Source of the DNA: Patescibacteria group bacterium
GTDB lineage: Bacteria; Patescibacteriota; Minisyncoccia; UBA6257; UBA9933
Reading direction: 5' to 3'
DNA length: 26,489 bases
NCBI GenBank assembly: GCA_038063395.1
Contig: JBBTVE010000002.1
Location: 1 to 26,489 of the forward strand
Under the pieces are notes generated by a model. That model was not told where the DNA came from. It searched no databases and saw only the letters and a program-made list of their open reading frames with translations. Position 1 is the first letter of the stretch. Each line of letters opens with the position of its first letter. Positions 1 through 19,745 of the stretch are shown in pieces. The position numbers and the translations under genes are program-made.

Positions 1-2563
1 ATCTTATAATTACTTTTTTATAAATCTCATCATGGCTTTTTTCCGAAAAACGAAGGTCTTCGGCTCGCATCACCGGTGAAGATAAAAGATAAAGACGAAG
101 CGCGTCGGCGCCGTATTTTTCAATAATTTCCATCGGGTCGGGATAATTTTTCAAACGTTTTGACATCTTTTGTCCGTCTTCCGCCAAAATAATCCCATTA
201 ACAACCGCGTTTTTGTAAGCGGATTTATTAAAAATCGCCGCTGACAAAACCAACATTGTATAAAACCAACCGCGCGTCTGATCAAGACCTTCTGCAATAA
301 ATTCCGCTGGAAACGCAAACTTTTCGCCCGAAAACGGATAATGCGTCTGACCGTAAGGCATTGAACCTGATTCAAACCAACAATCAAAAACTTCTAAAAT
401 TCGTTTCATTTTCCCGCCGCAATTACACCTTAATTCAACTTCATCGATGTAGGGCCTATGCAAATCAATTTCATAATTTCTATTATGCGGAATCGGCGCG
501 AAATCAAGTTCTTGAAATTCTCCGGTTTTAATAAAATCCGGCTTGTCTTTTTTTATTTCAACCGCTTTTTTCGCGTCGGCGCCCAAAGCCGTTGCAAACA
601 TCAACCAAATAGAATATTCATGACTGATAATTAAAATATTTTTACCGGAATATTTAATGTTAATTTCGTATAAAAATTCCGCGACGCGGTTTTTAAGTTC
701 AATAAGATTTTCACCCTCCGGCGGATTTTTATAAAATTTTTCTTCCAACGAAAAAAAGTATTTATGGTATTCTTCGGCTGACTGGCCGTCAAAAATTCCA
801 ACATTAACTTCGCGAATTCTTTCGTCAAAAATCAAATCATCGCCGTTAATGCCTAATTTTTCAACCATAATTTCCGAGGTTTCTTTAGTGCGCAAATAAT
901 CCGAAGAAAATATCATATCTATTTTCTCTCCTTTCAATTTAAGAGCCGTTATCGCAACTTGTTTTTTCCCTTTTTCGGTAAGATGATGGCCGTTTTTTAT
1001 ATTACAACTGGCGATATTTTCAATATTGCTTTGGGCTTCGCCGTGACGCATCACAAAATATTTATTGCCGGATTTTTCAGTTTTATTTTTAAGGTCATTA
1101 AGTGAACCGATAATTTCAATTTTTTCGCATTTTTGGCATTTCCAAACGGGAATCGGCGCTCCCCAAAAACGGCTTCTTGAAATCGCCCAATCTCTCGCTT
1201 CTTTGAGCCAATTTCCAAACCGTCCCTCTTTAATATATTCGGGAATCCAATTTATTTTTTTATTAATCTCGATAAGTTTATTTTTAATTGCCGCGACTTT
1301 CATAAACCATGAAGAAGCCGCGTAATTTATAAGCGGCGTGTCGCAACGCCAGCAATACGGATAAGAATGAGAGATTTTTAGCTTGCTAAAAAGTTTATTA
1401 TTAACAGCCAGCCATTTAATAATTTCAATATCCGTGGCTTGCGAATTGTCTTTTGATTTAACCGGCATGCCGGCAAAATCTTTAACCTCTTGCTTAAATC
1501 TGCCGTCAATTGAAACATGCTGAATAAAAGGCAAATTATGCTTTTGCGCCAAATTATAATCGTCTTCGCCGAACGCCGGAGCGATATGGACAACGCCTGT
1601 CCCCTCTTCGGTTGTCACGAAATCCGAGCTATAAATTTTCCAGCCATTTTCGAGATTTTTTAAAATTTCATCTTTTGCACCCTCTTTCGCTGAAGCTACA
1701 GCGGGCAAGTAGTAATTGAAAAGCGGTTTATATTTTTTACCAATAAGCTCCTCTCCCTTAAAATTATCTAAAATTTCATATTTTTCTTCACCTAAAATCT
1801 CCAATCTTTTTTTTGCCAAAATAAATTGCTGCGGTTCATTGTTCGTAGTTTGTGTCCTGATTTTTACATATTCAATTTCCGGATTTATCGCCAAGGCCGC
1901 GTTTCCGGGCAAAGTCCAAGGCGTCGTAGTCCAAGCCAGAATATAAGTATTCAATTCATTTTCCAGCTCAAATTTCACCGTAACTGAAATGTCGGTAATG
2001 TCCTTATAATTCATGCCTACTTCAAGATTAGAGAGAGTTGTTTCACATCTTGGACAAAGATGCATTGATTTATAACCCTCATAAATCAACTCTTTATCAA
2101 AAAGCGTTTTGAAAACCCACCAAACGGATTCCGTATATTCCCAATCCATTGTCTTATAATCATTTTCCATATCTACCCAGCGGCCGATGCGAGCAATCGT
2201 TTTTTTCCATTCATCGGCATAACGAAGAACGCTATCCTTGGCGGCTTTATTAAATTTTTCAACACCATAATTTTCTATCTCTTTTTTTGTTTTGAAGCCC
2301 AATTCTTTTTCAATTTCATACTCAACCGGCAAACCGTGGCAATCCCAACCCCAACGCCGCTTTACTTTATAACCCTTCATTGTTTTGTAGCGAGGAATGG
2401 CATCTTTAATAATGCTCGCTAAAATATGACCGTAATGAGGCGTGCCAGTGGCAAACGGCGGGCCGTCATAGAAAACAAAATCACCCTTTGGCGATTTTTT
2501 ATCCAAAGATTTCTCAAAAATTTTATTTTCTTGCCAGAATTTTAAAATTTCTTTTTCTAACAT
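1..2563 (-). CDS. ileS: Isoleucine--tRNA ligase (type 2, HYGH), 3'-truncated by window edge, with inserted histidine phosphatase domain
   Basis: Manual translation from ATG at 2563: YDGPPFATGTPHYGH, WGWDCHGLP, AWTTTPWTLPGN, GTGVVHIAPAFG, WAISRSRFWGAPIP, WFESGSMP, EGLDQTRGWF, KMSKR (M at 164-166). All anchors checked are in one frame. Absent from ORF track because no stop codon lies in the window. Confidence 0.97.
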   Translation of the reverse strand, partial: MLEKEILKFWQENKIFEKSLDKKSPKGDFVFYDGPPFATGTPHYGHILASIIKDAIPRYKTMKGYKVKRRWGWDCHGLPVEYEIEKELGFKTKKEIENYGVEKFNKAAKDSVLRYADEWKKTIARIGRWVDMENDYKTMDWEYTESVWWVFKTLFDKELIYEGYKSMHLCPRCETTLSNLEVGMNYKDITDISVTVKFELENELNTYILAWTTTPWTLPGNAALAINPEIEYVKIRTQTTNNEPQQFILAKKRLEILGEEKYEILDNFKGEELIGKKYKPLFNYYLPAVASAKEGAKDEILKNLENGWKIYSSDFVTTEEGTGVVHIAPAFGEDDYNLAQKHNLPFIQHVSIDGRFKQEVKDFAGMPVKSKDNSQATDIEIIKWLAVNNKLFSKLKISHSYPYCWRCDTPLINYAASSWFMKVAAIKNKLIEINKKINWIPEYIKEGRFGNWLKEARDWAISRSRFWGAPIPVWKCQKCEKIEIIGSLNDLKNKTEKSGNKYFVMRHGEAQSNIENIASCNIKNGHHLTEKGKKQVAITALKLKGEKIDMIFSSDYLRTKETSEIMVEKLGINGDDLIFDERIREVNVGIFDGQSAEEYHKYFFSLEEKFYKNPPEGENLIELKNRVAEFLYEINIKYSGKNILIISHEYSIWLMFATALGADAKKAVEIKKDKPDFIKTGEFQELDFAPIPHNRNYEIDLHRPYIDEVELRCNCGGKMKRILEVFDCWFESGSMPYGQTHYPFSGEKFAFPAEFIAEGLDQTRGWFYTMLVLSAAIFNKSAYKNAVVNGIILAEDGQKMSKRLKNYPDPMEIIEKYGADALRLYLLSSPVMRAEDLRFSEKSHDEIYKKVIIR

Positions 2564-3004: not shown

Positions 3005-4606
3005 CTACATTTTTTTTGGGATATTTACTCCTAAAATGTTTAAAATATTTTCAAAAACAATTTGTGTTGCTTTTATTAATTCCAGGCGCGCCATTGTTAA
3101 ATCAATATCCACCCCTTCACCCACTACTCTCTCTTTTTCATAAAAATTATGAAATTCCCGTGCCAAATCCAAAGAATAACGAACTAAAATTTGCGGATTA
3201 TATTTTTCAGCCGATTCTTCAATAATTTCCGAAAATCGCGCTAGCATTCGCATCAAATTCAAATCTTCTTTTGTGTTTAATAAATTTGAGTTAATGTCTG
3301 GCCTTTGACCTTTGACCTTTGACTTCTGTAAAATACTATCGCATCTAACGGCCGCGTATTGAACATAATAAACCGGATTTTTCATTGACCGCTCTTTTGC
3401 CAATTCCAAATCAAAATCCATATGGGTTTCCGGCGAATGCATTAAAAAGAAAAATCTCGCGACATCAATTCCAACCTCGGCGATAAGATCGCCGAAAGCG
3501 ATGAATTCCCCTTTTCGTTTTGACATTTTTATTTCTTCCCCTTTTCTTATCAAACGAACCGCTTGAGTAATTATAATTTTACTGTTTTTAACCCCCATAA
3601 TTTCAGCCGCTGCTTGAATTCTTTTAACATAACCATAGTGGTCTGGTCCCATAATATTGATTTTTTGTCCAAATCCCCGTTTTTTTGTTTCCAGATAATG
3701 ACCGGCATCCGCCAAAAAATAAGTTGGAAATCCGTCTTTGGTAATAAGAACCCTGTCTTTATCGTCGCTAAATTGCGTTGTTTTGAACCATAAAGCGCCG
3801 TCTTTTTTGTATGTTAGCCCAGATTTTTCAAAAATCGCCAACGCTTTTTTTGTAAAATTTTTCTTTTGAATATGACGATCTTCCGAAGTAAAACGGTCAA
3901 AACGGATTTTTGAATCTTTTATTAAAACCTTTTTTATCGATGCGAGAAAATTTTTAGCCGCCAATTGCCCGATTTTCAAATAATTGTTTTTATACTTTTT
4001 AATCGCTGCCGAATTTTTATTAGCCCAATCCTTGATATAATCGCCCTGATAAAAATTTTCTTCCCGGGGAATTAAATTTGCCGTTGCGGCCATTGATTTT
4101 CCCAAAGTAATAATCTGATTGCCGGTATCATTGACATAATATTCACGCTCAACCTTATATCCTTGAAATTCTAAAATATTTGACAAAACATCGCCAAAAA
4201 ATCCTCCTCGACCGTTCGCCAAAGTTAAAGGGCCTGTTGGATTGGCAGAGATAAACTCAATCTGAACCTTTGACATCTGACCTTTGACATTTGACCGACC
4301 GTAATTCTTTTTCTTTTTTAATATTTCTTTCAATTCGTTTTGTAAAACTTTCGGTTTTAACCAAAAATTTATGAAACCCGGAGGAGTGACTTCAATTTTA
4401 TTAAAAACATCTGACGTCCGACGTCTGACATCTGACGCAATTTTTTCGGCAATTTGTATCGAATTTTCGCCGCGGATTTTCGTCAACTTCAAAGCGACAT
4501 TCGTTGAATAATGTCCGAACTGCTCGTTTTCCGGAATGAAAATTTCAATTTTTATTTTTTCTTTAATGGCTTTTTTAAAATAATTTATAATGTTTGACTT
4601 AATCAT
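3005..4606 (-). CDS. argS: Arginine--tRNA ligase
   Basis: FGHYSTNVAL, IEFISANPTGP, REYYVNDTGNQ, GPDHYGY, KMSKRKG, NPVYYVQYA and C-terminal DALR-type region; 533 aa. Confidence 0.97.
   Translation of the reverse strand: MIKSNIINYFKKAIKEKIKIEIFIPENEQFGHYSTNVALKLTKIRGENSIQIAEKIASDVRRRTSDVFNKIEVTPPGFINFWLKPKVLQNELKEILKKKKNYGRSNVKGQMSKVQIEFISANPTGPLTLANGRGGFFGDVLSNILEFQGYKVEREYYVNDTGNQIITLGKSMAATANLIPREENFYQGDYIKDWANKNSAAIKKYKNNYLKIGQLAAKNFLASIKKVLIKDSKIRFDRFTSEDRHIQKKNFTKKALAIFEKSGLTYKKDGALWFKTTQFSDDKDRVLITKDGFPTYFLADAGHYLETKKRGFGQKINIMGPDHYGYVKRIQAAAEIMGVKNSKIIITQAVRLIRKGEEIKMSKRKGEFIAFGDLIAEVGIDVARFFFLMHSPETHMDFDLELAKERSMKNPVYYVQYAAVRCDSILQKSKVKGQRPDINSNLLNTKEDLNLMRMLARFSEIIEESAEKYNPQILVRYSLDLAREFHNFYEKERVVGEGVDIDLTMARLELIKATQIVFENILNILGVNIPKKM
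3302..3322. repeat. In-frame heptamer tandem repeat (CCTTTGA x3) in argS
   Basis: Three perfect 7-bp units, encoding SKVKGQR. Confidence 0.9.
4267..4294. repeat. Heptamer tandem repeat in argS (CCTTTGA CATCTGA CCTTTGA CATTTGA)
   Basis: Four 7-bp units, encoding part of SNVKGQMSKV. Confidence 0.85.
4408..4435. repeat. Heptamer tandem repeat in argS (CATCTGA CGTCCGA CGTCTGA CATCTGA)
   Basis: Four 7-bp units, encoding part of SDVRRRTSDV. Confidence 0.85.
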
Positions 4607-5116: not shown

Positions 5117-5554
5117 ATGCCTGTCATCACCATAAATAAACGCGCTTATTTTGATTATGAAATCCTGGAAACTTTTGAAGCCGGAATTGAACTTTTCGGT
5201 TTTGAAGTGAAATCCGTCAAAAACGGCCGAATAAATTTAGCCGGTTCTTATGCGATTATAAGAGGTGGCGAGATTTGGCTGATTAATACCGATATCCCAG
5301 CTTATCAACCCAAAAACGCTCCGCCTGATTATAATGCTAAAAGGAACCGCCGTCTTCTTTTGAAAAAAAAAGAGATAGAATTTTTAATCGGCAAAACCGT
5401 TGAAAAGGGCTTGACTTTAGTCCCTTTGAAAGTTTATACTAAAGAACGAAAAATTAAGATTGAAATAGGATTGACTAAGAACAGAAAGAAAAAGGACAAA
5501 AGAGAATTGATAAAAAAACGCGAAGCGGAAAGAGAAATCAAATTGGGGATGTAA
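5117..5554 (+). CDS. smpB: SsrA-binding protein SmpB
   Basis: NKRAYFDYEILETFEAGIELFGFEVKS, RRLLLKKKEI, GLTLVPLKVY, DKRELIKKRE. Confidence 0.98.
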   Translation: MPVITINKRAYFDYEILETFEAGIELFGFEVKSVKNGRINLAGSYAIIRGGEIWLINTDIPAYQPKNAPPDYNAKRNRRLLLKKKEIEFLIGKTVEKGLTLVPLKVYTKERKIKIEIGLTKNRKKKDKRELIKKREAEREIKLGM

Positions 5555-5883
5555 GGCTTCGACAGAAGATCTTTTCAAAAAACAGCGAGCCGAGCCGATT
5601 AACTCGTTAAACTGATTAAAACAAAAATAACTGCCAACAAAAATTTGGCTCCCGCGTTCGCTTTCGCGTAATGCGGCATCCGCTTTTAATCGCCTGAGTT
5701 GAAAAGTCGGGTGTTATACTTCAGGATATATCAGATATCAAGCCGAAAATATCTAATGAAAAATTCGGCGAAAATTTAGAAGGTTTTGTCAGATTTCAAC
5801 TTTTAAATTTATTCTAATCTAACTACGCTCGTAGAAGTCTTTTGGAAAATCTTTTGGACGGGGTTTCAATACCCCCATCTCCA
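5545..5883 (+). ncRNA. ssrA: tmRNA (one-piece)
   Basis: 5' GGGGATG pairs with 3' CATCTCC (5876-5882) including G3-U70. Discriminator A5883, 5' GGCTTCGAC motif, internal tag ORF after ATAACT, adjacent to smpB. Confidence 0.95.
5633..5671 (+). other. tmRNA tag reading frame ANKNLAPAFAFA*
   Basis: ATAACT-GCC AAC AAA AAT TTG GCT CCC GCG TTC GCT TTC GCG TAA. Confidence 0.85.
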
Positions 5884-5899
5884 CATAAAACATAACAAT

Positions 5900-7381: not shown

Positions 7382-9112
7382 TTATTTTAGCATACTAAGC
7401 ATTTTTTTAACGCTCCAACAATTAATAATATCTTTTTTTTCAGCCCAACCTTTTCGCGCCTGCGAAACGCCGTATTCCATAAGATTTAATTGATCTTTAT
7501 GATGACTATCGGAATTAATAATCATTTTTACGCCAATTTCTTTGGCCTTACGGATATTTTGATCGTTTAAATCCAATCTGTAAGGATTGGCGTTAATTTC
7601 TAAAACCGTTCCTGTTTCCTTTGCCACCCTTAAAATTTTGTCAAAATCAATTTCGTATTCTTCGCGTTGATTTAAAATTCTTCCGGTTGGATGAGAAATA
7701 ATATCAACATTGGGATTTTCCATTGCTCTAATAATTCTCTTAGTCATTTCATCTTTGGCTATTTTCATCTGCGAATGAACGCCGGCAATCACATAATCCA
7801 ATTTTGCCAATGCTTCATCGGAAATATCAATTGAGCCATCAGACATTATGTTGGCCTCGCAACCGTGCAATATTCTAAATTTTAAATTTTTAATTTTAAA
7901 TTTTAAATTGATTTTATCTATTTCTTTTCTTTGTTTTGCCAACTGTTTTTCGTCTAAACCGTGTTCTATATGTAAAAATTTTGTGTGGTCGGAGATACCG
8001 ATATATTCATAATTCATCGCCATTGCCGCTTCCGCTATTTCTTTAATTAATCTCTTCCCTGCTCCCCAATGCGAATGACAATGTAAATCGCCTTTAATAT
8101 CTCCAAGTTTAATAAGTTTTGGCAATTTGTTTTTCAACCCCAATTCAATTTCGCCGTTATTTTCCCGCATTTCTGGAGGAATCCATCTTAACCCTAATTT
8201 TTCATAAATTTCTTTTTCATTCTCGCCGGCAATCATTTTTGAACCCTTGAAAAGACCGTATTCCGACAACTTTAATCCCCTATTAATGGCTATTTTTCGA
8301 AGCGCGATATTATGCTCTTTTGAGCCGGTAAAATATTGTAAAGCCGAGCCGAATTGTTTTTCCGGCAAAACCCGCAAATCAACGTCAAAACCTTCCGACA
8401 TCCTGACCGACGCTTTAGTTGACCCTTTTGCCCAGATTTTAACAATGCCTCTAAGAGAAGCGAAATAATCGATGACTTTTTTAGGATTAGAACTGGCAAT
8501 TAAAATATCGGCATCGCCGATTGTTTCCTTGCGCCGTCTTATTGAACCGGCTTCGGAAATTTGCTTAACCTCTTTTAAATTTTTAAATTCAGCGATAATT
8601 TCGGAAACTTTCGGCAAAATTTCGCCCAACAAAAATCTCCCCTTGCTTCTTTTTAAAAATTCAATGCCTTCCAAAATATTATCTTCTGTTTTTTGACCGA
8701 AACCGAACAAAGGCGCGATTTTATGAATTTTAGCGGCTTTTTCAAGATTTTTAATGTTTTTAATGCCTAATTTTTGATATAAGATTTTGATTTTTTTGGG
8801 TCCCAAACCTTCGATACCGATTAATTCTTCCAAATCAACCGGTGTTTTCTTTTTGAGCGCTGTCAATTCTTTAATTTTTCCGGTTTTCAAATATTCCTCA
8901 ATTTTAAAAGCGATACCTTCACCAACGCCGGGAATTTCTTTTAACGCCTTTAATCCGCCTTTTTTATAAATACTTTCCACATCCTCGTTTAAGGCCTCCA
9001 AATTAACCGCCACTTTTTTAAGGGCGATGGACTTAAAAGGAACCTTATCCCCTTCCATATCCAAATAAAGAGCCATTTTATAGAATATTTTAGAGAGGTC
9101 TTGATTGATCAC
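7382..9112 (-). CDS. polX: DNA polymerase X family with C-terminal PHP domain
   Basis: HhH motifs, GSIRRRKETIGDADIL, VDLR, YFTGSKEHN, PHP motifs DLHCHS, ISDH, ISHPTGR, NSDSH. GTG start overlaps the upstream TGA. Confidence 0.95.
   Translation of the reverse strand: MINQDLSKIFYKMALYLDMEGDKVPFKSIALKKVAVNLEALNEDVESIYKKGGLKALKEIPGVGEGIAFKIEEYLKTGKIKELTALKKKTPVDLEELIGIEGLGPKKIKILYQKLGIKNIKNLEKAAKIHKIAPLFGFGQKTEDNILEGIEFLKRSKGRFLLGEILPKVSEIIAEFKNLKEVKQISEAGSIRRRKETIGDADILIASSNPKKVIDYFASLRGIVKIWAKGSTKASVRMSEGFDVDLRVLPEKQFGSALQYFTGSKEHNIALRKIAINRGLKLSEYGLFKGSKMIAGENEKEIYEKLGLRWIPPEMRENNGEIELGLKNKLPKLIKLGDIKGDLHCHSHWGAGKRLIKEIAEAAMAMNYEYIGISDHTKFLHIEHGLDEKQLAKQRKEIDKINLKFKIKNLKFRILHGCEANIMSDGSIDISDEALAKLDYVIAGVHSQMKIAKDEMTKRIIRAMENPNVDIISHPTGRILNQREEYEIDFDKILRVAKETGTVLEINANPYRLDLNDQNIRKAKEIGVKMIINSDSHHKDQLNLMEYGVSQARKGWAEKKDIINCWSVKKMLSMLK
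7873..7907. repeat. Heptamer tandem repeat (TTTTAAA-type x5) in polX
   Basis: TTCTAAA TTTTAAA TTTTTAA TTTTAAA TTTTAAA, encoding LKFKIKNLKFRI. Confidence 0.75.
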
Positions 9113-19067: not shown

Positions 19068-19745
19068 TTATCTCTTCCTCCTCCACTCCTCTATTTTTTT
19101 ATGATTGCCTGAAAGCAAAATTTTCGGAACTGAATATTCTTTGTTTTTCCATTTAAAAATTTCCGGTCGAGTGTAAACAGGCATGCCAATGCCATGTCTT
19201 TTCTCCTCAAGCGATTCTGTTTTCCCTAAAACTCCGGGAATTTGACGGGAAATTGAATCAATTAAAACCATTGCCGGCAATTCGCCGCCGGTTAAAACAT
19301 AAGGACCTATGGAAATTTTTTCCGCCGACTGGCGAATTAAATTTTTAATTACTTTTTCTACTCTTGCGTCAATACCTTCATAACGGCCACAAATTAAAAT
19401 CAGATTGTCATAATTTTTTGCTAAATTAACGGCGATTTTATTATCAAATTGCTTTCCAGTCGGAGTAAATAAAATTATCTTGGTTTTTTTCTTAATTCTT
19501 AATTCTGTATTCTTAATTCTCAAAATTGAACTAATAGCGCTAATTAATGGTTCAATTTTAAGCGCCATCCCAGGCCCTCCGCCAAAAGGTCTATCATCTA
19601 CTTTATGATGCTTATCCTTGGTAAAATCCCGTAAATTATGGATTTTAATGTCAATCAATTTATTTTTTTGGGCGCGTTTCAAAATAGACTCATTTAAATA
19701 AGAATCAAAAATTTTCGGGAAAATTGTGATAATATTAAATTTCAT
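19068..19745 (-). CDS. trmD: tRNA (guanine-N1)-methyltransferase
   Basis: VDDRPFGGGPGM, LICGRYEGIDARV, SIGPYVLTGGELPAMV, VPKILLSGNH. Confidence 0.98.
   Translation of the reverse strand: MKFNIITIFPKIFDSYLNESILKRAQKNKLIDIKIHNLRDFTKDKHHKVDDRPFGGGPGMALKIEPLISAISSILRIKNTELRIKKKTKIILFTPTGKQFDNKIAVNLAKNYDNLILICGRYEGIDARVEKVIKNLIRQSAEKISIGPYVLTGGELPAMVLIDSISRQIPGVLGKTESLEEKRHGIGMPVYTRPEIFKWKNKEYSVPKILLSGNHKKIEEWRRKR
19321..19336. repeat. Short palindrome (TTCGCC-AGTC-GGCGGA) inside trmD
   Basis: 6-bp stem with one U-G pair on the minus strand, encoding IRQSAE. Confidence 0.55.
19489..19523. repeat. Heptamer tandem repeat (TTCTTAA-type x5) in trmD
   Basis: TTCTTAA TTCTTAA TTCTGTA TTCTTAA TTCTCAA, encoding LRIKNTELRIKK. 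Confidence 0.85.

What the first reader, a model, noticed from the sequence alone, without database searches (positions are those of the whole stretch)
3302..4435. Three in-frame heptamer arrays of one family inside argS
Seen: three separate tandem arrays (3302-3322, 4267-4294, 4408-4435) share the 7-bp consensus CNTYTGA (one unit is CGTCCGA) in the same orientation, giving SKVKGQR, SNVKGQMSKV and SDVRRRTSDV. The repeat is at the DNA level with period 7, so the peptide cycles through all three frames and the motif cannot be protein-selected. Units vary at fixed positions rather than randomly. Inference: recurrent insertion or templated synthesis of heptamer arrays at tolerant loops, with frame-preserving lengths selected. 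This is a candidate undescribed repeat-writing or mobile system, or a contingency mechanism. I recall heptamer tracts near four-helix-bundle/IVS-type genes in other bacteria, but no such gene is in this window.
Basis: partly seen in the sequence, partly recalled or inferred. Interest (0 to 1): 0.75.

Follow-up and report, generated by a model that had tools for sequence, protein, structure and literature searches.

The report
In-frame heptamer repeat arrays in argS
Three short runs of a 7-base repeat are read straight through inside the arginyl-tRNA synthetase gene of a tiny groundwater bacterium, and they belong to a lineage-wide habit of carrying such runs in the loops of essential enzymes, a little-understood kind of bacterial repeat rather than a new genetic device.

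Summary
Three period-7 arrays (coding-strand unit GTCARAN, four units each) lie in frame in argS, where chance gives none. They are part of a genome-wide excess: 22 period-7 arrays in ORFs, against 0.33 after codon shuffling and 2.1 after synonymous shuffling. Nearly all sit in housekeeping genes.

Related CPR/Patescibacteria genomes show the same feature. At ArgRS loop 426-442, period 7 is the best period in 22 of 50 CPR orthologues, against 3 of 56 from other phyla, and the units differ between genomes. A loop of triosephosphate isomerase behaves likewise in 18 of 30.

The argS arrays are not insertions. They align without indels to close orthologues, and two of them are shared with relatives. 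Contigs from three studies (2019-2025) show no unit-number variation. No four-helix-bundle (IVS) gene or reverse transcriptase was found in this 84%-complete genome.

Best reading: the arrays belong to the known, mechanistically unexplained heptanucleotide-repeat class, here filtered by frame and stop codons. Three things remain unexplained: a four-to-five-unit size mode, wholesale replacement of arrays between congeners, and unit families shared between genomes.

The scan has noted in-frame heptamer arrays before on other DNA.

The parts
3005..4606 (-). argS (arginyl-tRNA synthetase), 533 aa, intact open frame that reads through all three arrays
   Evidence: ORF list and translation. Pfam Arg_tRNA_synt_N, tRNA-synt_1d and DALR_1. 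AlphaFold2 model with mean pLDDT 90.4. Matches solved ArgRS chain 3fnr_A at E 2.8e-73.
3296..3323 (-). Array at 'site 3': GTCAAAG x3 plus a degenerate fourth unit, encoding SKVKGQR (aa 429-435) in the loop at the start of the DALR domain
   Evidence: TRF gives 3302-3323, 3.1 copies, 100% match. Four units when 1 mismatch per unit is allowed. Loop 429-439 has the lowest pLDDT block of the model, 65. Period 7 is the best period at this loop in 22 of 50 CPR orthologues against 3 of 56 from other phyla.
4268..4295 (-). Array at 'site 2': GTCAAAT GTCAAAG GTCAGAT GTCAAAG followed by GT, encoding SNVKGQMSKV (aa 105-114) in the loop before the first Rossmann strand
   Evidence: TRF gives 4266-4296. 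Four units. Loop 102-112 has a pLDDT block of 72. It is the most conserved 30-nt window (28 of 30) between this gene and a 49%-identical orthologue, L015.
4409..4436 (-). Array at 'site 1': GTCAGAT GTCAGAC GTCGGAC GTCAGAT followed by GT, encoding SDVRRRTSDV (aa 58-67) in the N-terminal domain
   Evidence: TRF gives 4410-4437. Four units. It lies at the end of helix 49-63 plus the following turn, pLDDT 90-95. A diverged copy of the same array is at the same place in L002, L005 and L004.
7872..7909 (-). Another in-frame period-7 array (AATTTAA x5.4) inside a PolX-type DNA polymerase gene (7382-9112). One unit reads AATTAAA exactly where the consensus would put TAA in frame
   Evidence: TRF, sequence, Pfam DNA_pol_B_thumb, HHH and PHP, stop analysis. 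The congener G001 has a different period-7 stretch of the same length there.
19489..19520 (-). Another in-frame period-7 array (AGAATTA-type x4.6) inside trmD (19068-19745)
   Evidence: TRF, sequence, Pfam tRNA_m1G_MT. The same TrmD site carries a GTCAAAR array in G004 and an AAATCAA-type stretch in G001.

Best explanation
The three arrays are short heptanucleotide tandem arrays of the kind already known to be over-represented in many bacteria. That class includes the long simple-sequence repeats with 7-nt units, the cyanobacterial, Xanthomonas and Beggiatoa heptamer repeats. Here they occur in a CPR/Patescibacteria lineage whose genome is about 90% coding. They arise and turn over at the DNA level. 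The most likely route is error-prone reiterative or slipped DNA synthesis in a 7-nt register during replication or repair (inferred, not shown). Selection then keeps only what an essential gene can bear: the strand without stop codons, a net length that keeps the frame, and places where the protein tolerates any hydrophilic sequence. In argS they are simply translated as ten or so loop residues. They are inherited within the family and are neither a mobile element nor a switch. Shown: the DNA-level periodicity, its excess, the stop and frame filter, the loop location, the persistence of array sites across the order with changing units, and the stability across samples. Inferred: the polymerase-slippage origin and the neutrality of the encoded residues.
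For: (1) Excess is specific to period 7. 21 arrays (score >=40, >=3 copies) stand against a mean of 0.15 in 20 order-3 Markov shuffles. In 440 ORFs, 22 stand against 0.33 after codon shuffling and 2.13 after synonymous shuffling.
(2) Location follows coding density. 22 of 25 arrays lie wholly in ORFs and the coding fraction is 0.90. The hosts are ArgRS, PolX, TrmD, Fmt, GatC, LigA, PheS, PheT, LeuRS, two other class-I synthetase ORFs, Adk, ParB, TIM, MnmA and a prepilin peptidase.
(3) A stop-codon filter is visible. 13 of 21 consensus units are stop-free on the sense strand. The other 8 carry variant units where a stop would fall. For 18 of 21, the antisense orientation would contain stops.
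(4) The feature is lineage-wide. There are 17 arrays in 123 kb of relatives' argS loci against 0.05 expected. CPR-named loci give 18 TRF rows in 99 kb, against 4 rows in 241.5 kb from other phyla, none of those inside argS.
(5) Array sites persist while units change. This holds at ArgRS site 3 and at the TIM loop, 18 of 30. There are 36 period-7 arrays at about six TIM sites in 30 orthologues.
(6) The argS arrays are inherited and length-neutral.
(7) No unit-number change appears in contigs of 4 runs from 3 studies, 2019-2025.
(8) The literature describes heptamer over-representation and the polymerase-footprint slippage hypothesis (passages of PMC4692102 and PMC4679880). Rehm et al. also report a preference for four units.
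Against: Simple one-unit slippage frameshifts an essential gene, so it cannot build these arrays step by step. Yet 21 of 22 GTCARAN arrays in 9 genomes have four or five units, and only 1 has three. The general length distribution has a mode at 28-34 nt instead of decaying.

Between the two genomes of the same genus, 8 of 13 array sites compared hold unrelated sequence, mostly another period-7 array. In 3 of these the length is unchanged and the flanks are conserved (TIM, PolX, LeuRS site 706). This looks like replacement of a patch, not gradual drift.

The site-2 array is better conserved (28 of 30 nt) with a 49%-identical orthologue than any catalytic motif.

Unit families are shared between genomes and between unrelated sites, and they cluster locally in one genome: 6 of 12 GCGRCAN arrays lie within 4.1 kb in G041.

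No polymerase property was tested, and 'why seven' stays unexplained.
Confidence: 0.6

Rival explanations
1. A dedicated patch-writing or copy-paste activity lays down discrete arrays of about 30 nt (four units) at a set of sites and overwrites older arrays. It may be the same activity that builds the heptamer arms around four-helix-bundle (S23p/IVS, PF05635) genes.
For: Array size is tight: four units in 15 and five in 6 of 22 GTCARAN arrays, with GT following in 14. Among the 16 arrays from relatives, all three codon phases occur (7, 6 and 3). Congeners show length-neutral replacement by a member of a dispersed family, for example the TIM loop, AAATTTA-type in G000 against GTCAAAG-type in G001. 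Nearly the same four-unit string, including the odd unit GTCGGAC, sits at ArgRS site 1 here and at site 3 in L008. One unit family clusters locally in G041 and G043. PF05635 genes are found in 27 of 41 relatives, up to 8 per genome, and are bracketed by 7-8-nt arrays in the 6 loci examined, on both sides in 4. The Coxiella IVS has GACAGAT repeats before its S23p ORF (PMC4990558, passages).
Against: No PF05635 match in G000, G001, G010, G011, G016, G017 or G018. This group includes the four genomes with the most similar ArgRS, and G000, G001, G010 and G018 still carry GTCARAN arrays. Only 5 of 9 genomes with GTCARAN arrays have PF05635, against 22 of 32 without. No reverse transcriptase was found in G000. 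The arrays have no conserved flanks, terminal inverted repeats or target duplications by inspection. Within G000, near pairs of arrays are no more alike than far pairs: 2 of 17 same-family against 1.69 expected, p 0.51. Length changes at replaced sites are 6-15 nt, not a fixed cassette.
Confidence: 0.2
2. The arrays are selected nucleic-acid signals in the mRNA or DNA. One example would be rows of binding sites for a cold-shock-domain or S1-type protein that covers about 7 nt, as proposed for TAACTGA repeats. Another would be translation-pausing tracts.
For: Periodicity is kept at the same sites over order-level divergence. The site-2 array is conserved 28 of 30 nt with a 49%-identical orthologue. 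MacGregor 2015 argues for regulator binding and cites one CspB per heptamer (PMC4679880, passages).
Against: The unit sequence at a given site differs between genomes, even between congeners. One genome holds many unit families. Arrays occur in all three codon phases and in unrelated genes. A sequence-specific reader would not accept them all.
Confidence: 0.08
3. The arrays are contingency (phase-variation) loci that switch argS or diversify its loops by changes in unit number.
For: Tandem repeats in coding sequence are the classical substrate. Heptanucleotide phase variation exists in Haemophilus (PMC8262952, search listing only). One contig of run X7 has a single base left out at 3318.
Against: argS is single-copy and essential, and a one-unit change destroys it. 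Contigs of 4 runs from 3 studies over six years carry the same three arrays. The one-base difference is in a single contig of depth 5.68. Contigs hide rare variants, so low-level variation is not excluded.
Confidence: 0.03
4. The periodicity is a by-product of protein-level selection for Lys/Ser/Gln-rich flexible linkers with biased codons.
For: The arrays encode hydrophilic low-complexity peptides and are 50% A on the sense strand.
Against: Synonymous shuffling that keeps every protein sequence leaves 2.13 arrays against 22 observed. A 36-nt string is shared by two orthologues in different reading frames. Period 7 cycles through all three frames.
Confidence: 0.02

Closest known systems
Heptanucleotide long simple-sequence repeats of prokaryotes (Mrazek, Guo and Shah 2007). 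I did not read that paper. I know it only as summarised in passages of PMC4692102 and PMC4679880.
   Same: Tandem 7-nt units are over-represented relative to other unit sizes and to chance. The origin is proposed to be polymerase slippage tied to a 7-nt footprint.
   Different: Per those summaries, units that are multiples of three are the ones expected in coding regions. Here the 7-nt arrays are almost all inside genes, in frame, at recurrent loop sites of essential enzymes.
GGGAATC and GGGGA(C/T)T repeats of Xanthomonas and Nostoc (Rehm et al. 2015, PMC4692102; abstract and passages read)
   Same: A dispersed family with one unit consensus. [quoted passage not shown] High conservation at unit positions 1-4 and 6 (their wording). 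The same cyclic pattern fits GTCARAN, but my own count of that is circular.
   Different: Theirs are G-rich, form G-quadruplexes, are mostly intergenic and under-represented in coding regions, and vary from 2 to 26 units. The arrays here are A-rich, cannot form G4, lie in genes and span 3 to 5 units. So the four-unit mode cannot be due to G4 here.
TAACTGA direct repeats of marine Beggiatoaceae, Cyanobacteria and Bacteroidetes (MacGregor 2015, PMC4679880; abstract, section 15 and passages read)
   Same: One heptamer family is dispersed over a genome and shared between distant lineages with no evident mechanism. Orientation within ORFs is dictated by stop codons. A few copies are read through as peptide.
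   Different: Those are mainly 5' of start codons, and their in-ORF copies lie at protein ends. Here the arrays are internal, in conserved enzymes, and many unit families coexist.
STRR heptanucleotide repeats of heterocystous cyanobacteria (Mazel et al. 1990). This is recalled and not read. Rehm et al. mention three tandem heptanucleotides in Calothrix PCC 7601.
   Same: Several heptamer families per genome, each in short tandem arrays.
   Different: STRR are described as intergenic. No frame filter or site persistence in proteins has been described, as far as I recall.
Heptameric GACAGAT repeats in the 23S rRNA intervening sequence of Coxiella burnetii, upstream of the S23p four-helix-bundle ORF (PMC4990558, passages read)
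   Same: A 7-nt unit one base away from GTCAGAT, in two to three tandem copies plus a degenerate one. In this window's relatives, PF05635 genes are bracketed by such arrays.
   Different: There is no IVS, no PF05635 gene and no inverted partner arm at argS or anywhere found in G000. Copy number varies between Coxiella strains but not here.

Membership tests
Heptanucleotide tandem-repeat class (LSSR / STRR-type) | Head-to-tail repeats of a 7-nt unit, three or more copies | tested here: met
   TRF period 7 with 3.1, 4.4 and 4.0 copies. Four units each when 1 mismatch per unit is allowed.
Heptanucleotide tandem-repeat class (LSSR / STRR-type) | Genome-wide excess of period 7 over chance and over other periods | tested here: met
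   21 against 0.15 in Markov shuffles, with period 9 next at 10 against 0.4. 22 against 0.33 after codon shuffling.
Heptanucleotide tandem-repeat class (LSSR / STRR-type) | Dispersed loci sharing a unit family | tested here: met
   10 GTCARAN arrays (up to 2 mismatches in 21 nt) on 9 contigs of G000. The family is found in 9 of 41 related genomes, with 0 hits for the reversed control pattern.
Heptanucleotide tandem-repeat class (LSSR / STRR-type) | Mainly intergenic location (as described for Xanthomonas, Nostoc and Beggiatoa) | tested here: not met
   22 of 25 arrays lie wholly inside ORFs, in a genome that is 90% coding by my own ORF calls.
Heptanucleotide tandem-repeat class (LSSR / STRR-type) | Preference for about four units (Rehm et al. 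2015) | tested here: met
   Four units in 15, five in 6 and three in 1 of 22 GTCARAN arrays. The length mode over all families is 28-34 nt.
Heptanucleotide tandem-repeat class (LSSR / STRR-type) | Unit-number differences between strains | tested here: inconclusive
   None in contigs of 4 runs, but contigs drop rare variants. Between congeners, arrays are replaced rather than resized.
Phase-variable contingency locus | Repeat-number change that reversibly switches or alters a dispensable gene, seen as polymorphism in populations | tested here: not met
   The host is the only argS match in G000 (1 match). No unit-number variant appears in 4 runs from 3 studies.
IVS-type module (hairpin of repeat arms around an S23p/PF05635 four-helix-bundle gene) | PF05635 gene between the arms | tested here: not met
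   0 matches in G000, which is 84% complete. The module is present in 27 of 41 relatives.
IVS-type module (hairpin of repeat arms around an S23p/PF05635 four-helix-bundle gene) | Two arms in inverted orientation able to pair | tested here: not met
   All three argS arrays have the same orientation. The inverse orientation would put TGA in frame.
Retroelement-templated diversification (DGR-like) | Reverse transcriptase gene in the genome | tested here: not met
   PF00078 has 0 matches in G000. Template and variable repeat pairs were not searched.
Miniature mobile insertion (MITE-like) | Insertion relative to empty sites, with conserved ends or target duplication | tested here: not met
   There is no indel against close orthologues at sites 1-3. 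There are no conserved flanks among 22 family members by inspection, apart from a trailing GT in 14.

The most novel reading that the evidence does not exclude
Heptamer arrays are not slow microsatellites but discrete patches of about 30 nt (four units). On this reading an unrecognised DNA-synthesis or repair activity writes or copies them, repeatedly overwriting the same loop-coding sites without disturbing the frame. The same activity would produce the four-unit heptamer repeats of Xanthomonas and Nostoc and the heptamer arms around S23p/IVS four-helix-bundle genes. The coding arrays of CPR genomes would then be a natural record of its events, filtered only by frame and stop codons. That would make the old question of why bacteria over-produce 7-nt repeats directly testable.
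Probability: 0.2. Interest if true: 0.8.

Novelty: new variant of a known kind. Interest (0 to 1): 0.5.

Why it matters
Heptanucleotide repeats have been known as an oddity of bacterial genomes since at least 2007, and no mechanism has been established. These tiny, gene-dense CPR genomes put the repeats inside essential enzymes. There, frame and stop codons act as a strict filter, and orthologous loops can be compared across dozens of genomes. That exposes properties hidden in intergenic DNA:
- fixed array sites with changing units;
- a four-to-five-unit size that cannot come from G-quadruplex selection;
- whole-patch replacement between congeners.

These properties constrain any mechanism. 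They also offer a way to date and count events. Practically, such arrays inflate apparent divergence in the loops of marker proteins and can mislead alignments of CPR proteins. If the passive-slippage reading is right, the finding is a tidy extension of a known bias. If patch-writing is right, it points to an undescribed activity.

Tried and rejected
- Local spread of unit families inside G000. Near pairs (within 5 kb) are same-family in 2 of 17 cases against 1.69 expected, p 0.51. An earlier version of the test also gave no difference, 2.57 against 2.56. The binomial figure for 3 of 10 GTCARAN arrays lying in argS is post hoc and I do not lean on it.
- Quantised growth by three units (21 nt). 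The longest site-3 and TIM loops are about 7 aa longer than the shortest. But length differences at replaced sites between G000 and G001 are 6, 9, 12, 15 and 15 nt, and intergenic arms in relatives also have 4-5 units. I dropped it as a general rule.
- Positional conservation within GTCARAN. The arrays were collected with that pattern, so the count is circular. Only position 7 is informative (T 45, G 21, A 20, C 7).
- Link to four-helix-bundle genes. PF05635 was not found in G000 or in six of its relatives. There is no positive association with GTCARAN arrays: 5 of 9 genomes against 22 of 32.
- Reverse transcriptase: not found.
- Rfam: only the tmRNA at 5545-5886, and nothing on argS.
- Reads. 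All four runs are contigs, not raw reads. Run X10 covers only parts of the stretch. Contigs of X9 end at 4298 and resume at 4329, beside array 2, and that is not evidence of variation.
- G001's argS could not be compared at site 3 or at its 5' end, because those stretches read N.
- MnmA was not found in G001 with this query.
- Notes on this genome: none exist.
Full report
**Observation.** The window's minus strand holds an intact 533-aa arginyl-tRNA synthetase gene at 3005-4606. Tandem Repeats Finder reports three period-7 arrays inside it:
- 3302-3323: 3.1 copies, 100% match;
- 4266-4296: 4.4 copies;
- 4410-4437: 4.0 copies.

It hits nothing in 100 shuffles. On the coding strand the unit is GTCARAN. 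With one mismatch per unit allowed, each array has four units.

**The arrays belong to a genome-wide feature.** The assembly has 408 kb in 71 contigs, 37% G+C, and is 84% complete.
- It holds 21 period-7 arrays (score >=40, >=3 copies), against 0.15 in order-3 Markov shuffles. No other period comes near. Period 9 is next, with 10 against 0.4.
- I called 440 ORFs with a simple longest-ORF rule, not a gene finder. In them, 22 arrays stand against 0.33 after shuffling codons within genes and 2.13 after shuffling synonymous codons only. So the periodicity is in the DNA, beyond what the proteins require.
- 22 of 25 arrays lie wholly in ORFs, 2 partly and 1 between genes. That matches a coding fraction of 0.90.
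- The hosts are core genes: ArgRS, a PolX polymerase, TrmD, Fmt, GatC, LigA, PheS, PheT, LeuRS, two further class-I synthetase ORFs, adenylate kinase, ParB, TIM, MnmA and a prepilin peptidase. 1 of the 14 ORFs outside the window had no Pfam match.

**Selection's filter is visible.**
- In 13 of 21 arrays the consensus unit has no stop trinucleotide in tandem on the sense strand.
- In the other 8 the array is imperfect exactly where a stop would fall. The PolX array reads AATTAAA once where AATTTAA would give an in-frame TAA.
- For 18 of 21 the opposite orientation would contain stops.
- The arrays are 50% A on the sense strand.

**Place in the protein.** An AlphaFold2 model from 15 orthologues has mean pLDDT 90.4 and pTM 0.90.
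- Site 2 lies in loop 102-112, where the block pLDDT is 72.
- Site 3 lies in loop 429-439, where the block pLDDT is 65, the lowest of the model.
- Site 1 is the last turns of helix 49-63 plus the following turn, at pLDDT 90-95.

So 'tolerant loops' is right for two of the three sites.

**The argS arrays are not insertions.** I aligned 17 orthologues taken from the 40 nearest genomes.
- Sites 1 and 2 have the same length as in L003 (72% identical), which shows no period 7 there.
- Site 3 has the same 20-residue loop in 6 other close orthologues. It differs by one residue from the solved chain 3fnr_A.
- The site-1 array is present in diverged form in L002, L005 and L004. The site-2 array is present in L005, L004 and L015.

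So these arrays are inherited, not recent.

**The lineage.** The nearest named ArgRS loci are MAGs labelled Candidatus Brennerbacteria, Patescibacteria group, and several labelled Saccharibacteria. The organism is therefore a CPR bacterium. The runs that hold it are groundwater metagenomes.

**The same feature fills its relatives.**
- The 29 argS loci of relatives (123 kb) hold 17 period-7 arrays, against 0.05 expected.
- 23 CPR-named loci (99 kb) give 18 TRF rows. 57 loci of other phyla (241.5 kb) give 4 rows.
- All 28 period-7 rows inside argS coding sequence are in CPR genomes.
- At ArgRS site 3, period 7 is the best of periods 2-12 in 12 of 27 relatives and 10 of 23 CPR-named orthologues, against 3 of 56 others. 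In tiled background windows of the same genes the figures are 7.7%, 7.8% and 3.8%.
- The units at that one site differ between genomes: GTCAAAG here, CTACAAA, AAATCAA, ATCAAGC, GTATCAA, AATTTCC, AAATTCA, GAAATCC and GCGACAA elsewhere.

Related genomes are not independent samples. The different units do show separate events.

**Replication in a second protein.** At the TIM loop before the AYEP strand, period 7 is best in 18 of 30 orthologues. TRF finds 36 period-7 arrays at about six discrete TIM sites. One 250-aa TIM (L157) carries four arrays with four different units.

**Turnover between the two genomes of one genus.** I compared 13 array sites between G000 and G001.
- 5 sites keep the same array with a few substitutions: PheS, PheT, one site of a class-I synthetase, and ArgRS sites 1 and 2.
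- 8 sites hold unrelated sequence, mostly another period-7 array.
- In TIM, 33 nt of an AAATTTA-type array are replaced by a GTCAAAG-type array. The length is unchanged and the flanks are almost identical.
- PolX and LeuRS site 706 are also length-neutral.
- The other five sites differ by 6-15 nt.
- Conservation tracks gene divergence. PheS is 97% identical and keeps its array. LeuRS is 64% identical and all three of its sites differ.

**Stability in the population.** Contigs of four runs from three studies (2019-2025) match the stretch with the same three arrays. The only difference inside an array is one base left out at 3318, in a single contig of depth 5.68. These are contigs, not reads, so rare variants would be missed.

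**What plain slippage does not explain.**
- Size. Of 22 GTCARAN arrays in 9 genomes, 15 have four units, 6 have five and 1 has three. GT follows in 14. The 16 arrays from relatives use all three codon phases (7, 6 and 3). Over all families the length mode is 28-34 nt. [quoted passage not shown] The A-rich arrays here cannot form G4.
- One-unit steps would frameshift essential genes.
- Whole arrays are replaced between congeners.
- The site-2 array is the best conserved 30-nt window (28 of 30) between this gene and a 49%-identical orthologue, ahead of every catalytic motif.
- Two 48%-identical orthologues share a 36-nt string at site 3, read in different frames. The loop's conserved Lys-Ser-Lys codons (AAR TCA AAA) could seed the same unit independently in both.
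- Clustering. In G041, 6 of 12 GCGRCAN arrays lie within 4.1 kb around argS. In G043, 2 of 3 AAATTCN arrays are in argS. In G000 the genome-wide test is null.

**The four-helix-bundle lead.** G000 has no PF05635 match and no reverse transcriptase match. Among 41 related genomes, 27 have PF05635, with up to 8 copies. G000, G001, G010, G011, G016, G017 and G018 do not. That group includes the four genomes with the most similar ArgRS. G000, G001, G010 and G018 nevertheless carry GTCARAN arrays. In the 6 PF05635 loci fetched, 7-8-nt tandem arrays flank the gene, on both sides in 4 and on one side in 2. The Coxiella IVS paper describes three GACAGAT repeats before the S23p ORF, with copy number varying among strains (PMC4990558, passages).

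**Literature.** Heptamer over-representation and the polymerase-footprint slippage idea are cited to Mrazek et al. 2007 in passages of PMC4692102 and PMC4679880. I did not read the 2007 paper. MacGregor's section on repeats within ORFs makes the same point about stop codons and orientation. Three searches looked for a description of heptamer arrays in CPR:
- 'heptamer repeats' with 'Candidate Phyla Radiation' gave 0 papers.
- Patescibacteria with heptanucleotide, heptamer, 7-nt or tandem repeat gave 12 papers holding three terms, of which the 10 listed do not contain 'Patescibacteria'.
- Intervening sequence, four-helix bundle, 23S rRNA, tandem repeats and heptamer gave 1 paper, the Coxiella one.

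I found no description of in-frame heptamer arrays in CPR genomes in that library. Subscription journals are not covered.

**Verdict.** It is the local face of a strong, lineage-wide, DNA-level phenomenon that belongs to a known but unexplained repeat class. The 'DNA-level, frame-selected, loop-tolerated' core is supported. The scan has reported in-frame heptamer arrays in other CPR and non-CPR genomes. This report adds:
- the persistence of array sites with changing units;
- the four-to-five-unit mode in non-G4 units;
- patch replacement between congeners;
- the lack of dependence on PF05635.

Noticed in passing
window 2-2563 (-): A class-I aminoacyl-tRNA synthetase ORF (tRNA-synt_1, aa 6-500, with a trace of the LeuRS editing domain) carries a histidine-phosphatase domain (His_Phos_1, aa 503-670, E 1.3e-29) in the same open frame. 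The frame runs off the window start. This is an unusual fusion or insertion.
   Followed up: no
window 4193-4234 (-), ArgRS aa 125-138: The class-I 'HIGH' signature is not canonical. It reads PLTLANGRG where the solved ArgRS 3fnr has PLHIGHARG. N131, R133 and G134 are invariant in all 15 aligned relatives, whose consensus is PLTxGNGRG. A KMSKRKG motif is present.
   Followed up: no
L010 (G005) ArgRS site 3; L180 and L181 (G001); L169 (G014): A GC-rich mini-hairpin of about 20 nt (TCCGYC-N4-GGYGGAC followed by AAAT) lies in relatives. It encodes Pro-x-x-Gly-Gly-Gln, in several cases within or beside heptamer arrays. The four GGYGGACAR hits in G000 lack the hairpin.
   Followed up: partly
L111-L116 (relatives G009, G028, G007, G003, G019, G025): PF05635 (23S rRNA IVS / S23p four-helix-bundle) genes reach 8 copies in genomes of about 0.6 Mb. 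They are flanked by 7-8-nt tandem arrays rich in TAG, and the two arms are often inverted.
   Followed up: partly
L084 genome (G041) C2:64288-68360: Six of the twelve GCGRCAN x3 arrays of a 400-kb genome lie within 4.1 kb, three in argS and three just beside it.
   Followed up: no
window 4402-4436, run X9 record 28: A 1011-nt contig of depth 140 in one groundwater run matches only the site-1 array (35 nt, 5 differences). So a far more abundant organism in that run has a similar array in another context.
   Followed up: no
L004 ArgRS site 1; L070 ArgRS site 3; L008 and L010 near ArgRS aa 495: Orthologues carry GC-rich in-frame insertions of 10-22 aa, for example GQPRRQRVGAPTET and PSFADATAGRE, in the same variable loops. 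This is a second kind of loop filler, distinct from the heptamer arrays.
   Followed up: no
G000 genome-wide: Period-9 tandem arrays are also in excess: 10 against 0.4 in Markov shuffles, and 9 against 1.0 (codon shuffle) or 3.9 (synonymous shuffle) in ORFs. They may be protein-level repeats.
   Followed up: no
G000 C17:305-334: An intergenic double array (AGTGGCT x2, GCTAATC x2.7) sits next to what looks like a tRNA gene. It resembles the arm units around a PF05635 gene in L115.
   Followed up: no
window 5117-5886 (+): smpB (5117-5554) is followed directly by the tmRNA gene (5545-5886, RF00023, 148 bits). This is ordinary, but it fixes the annotation.
   Followed up: yes
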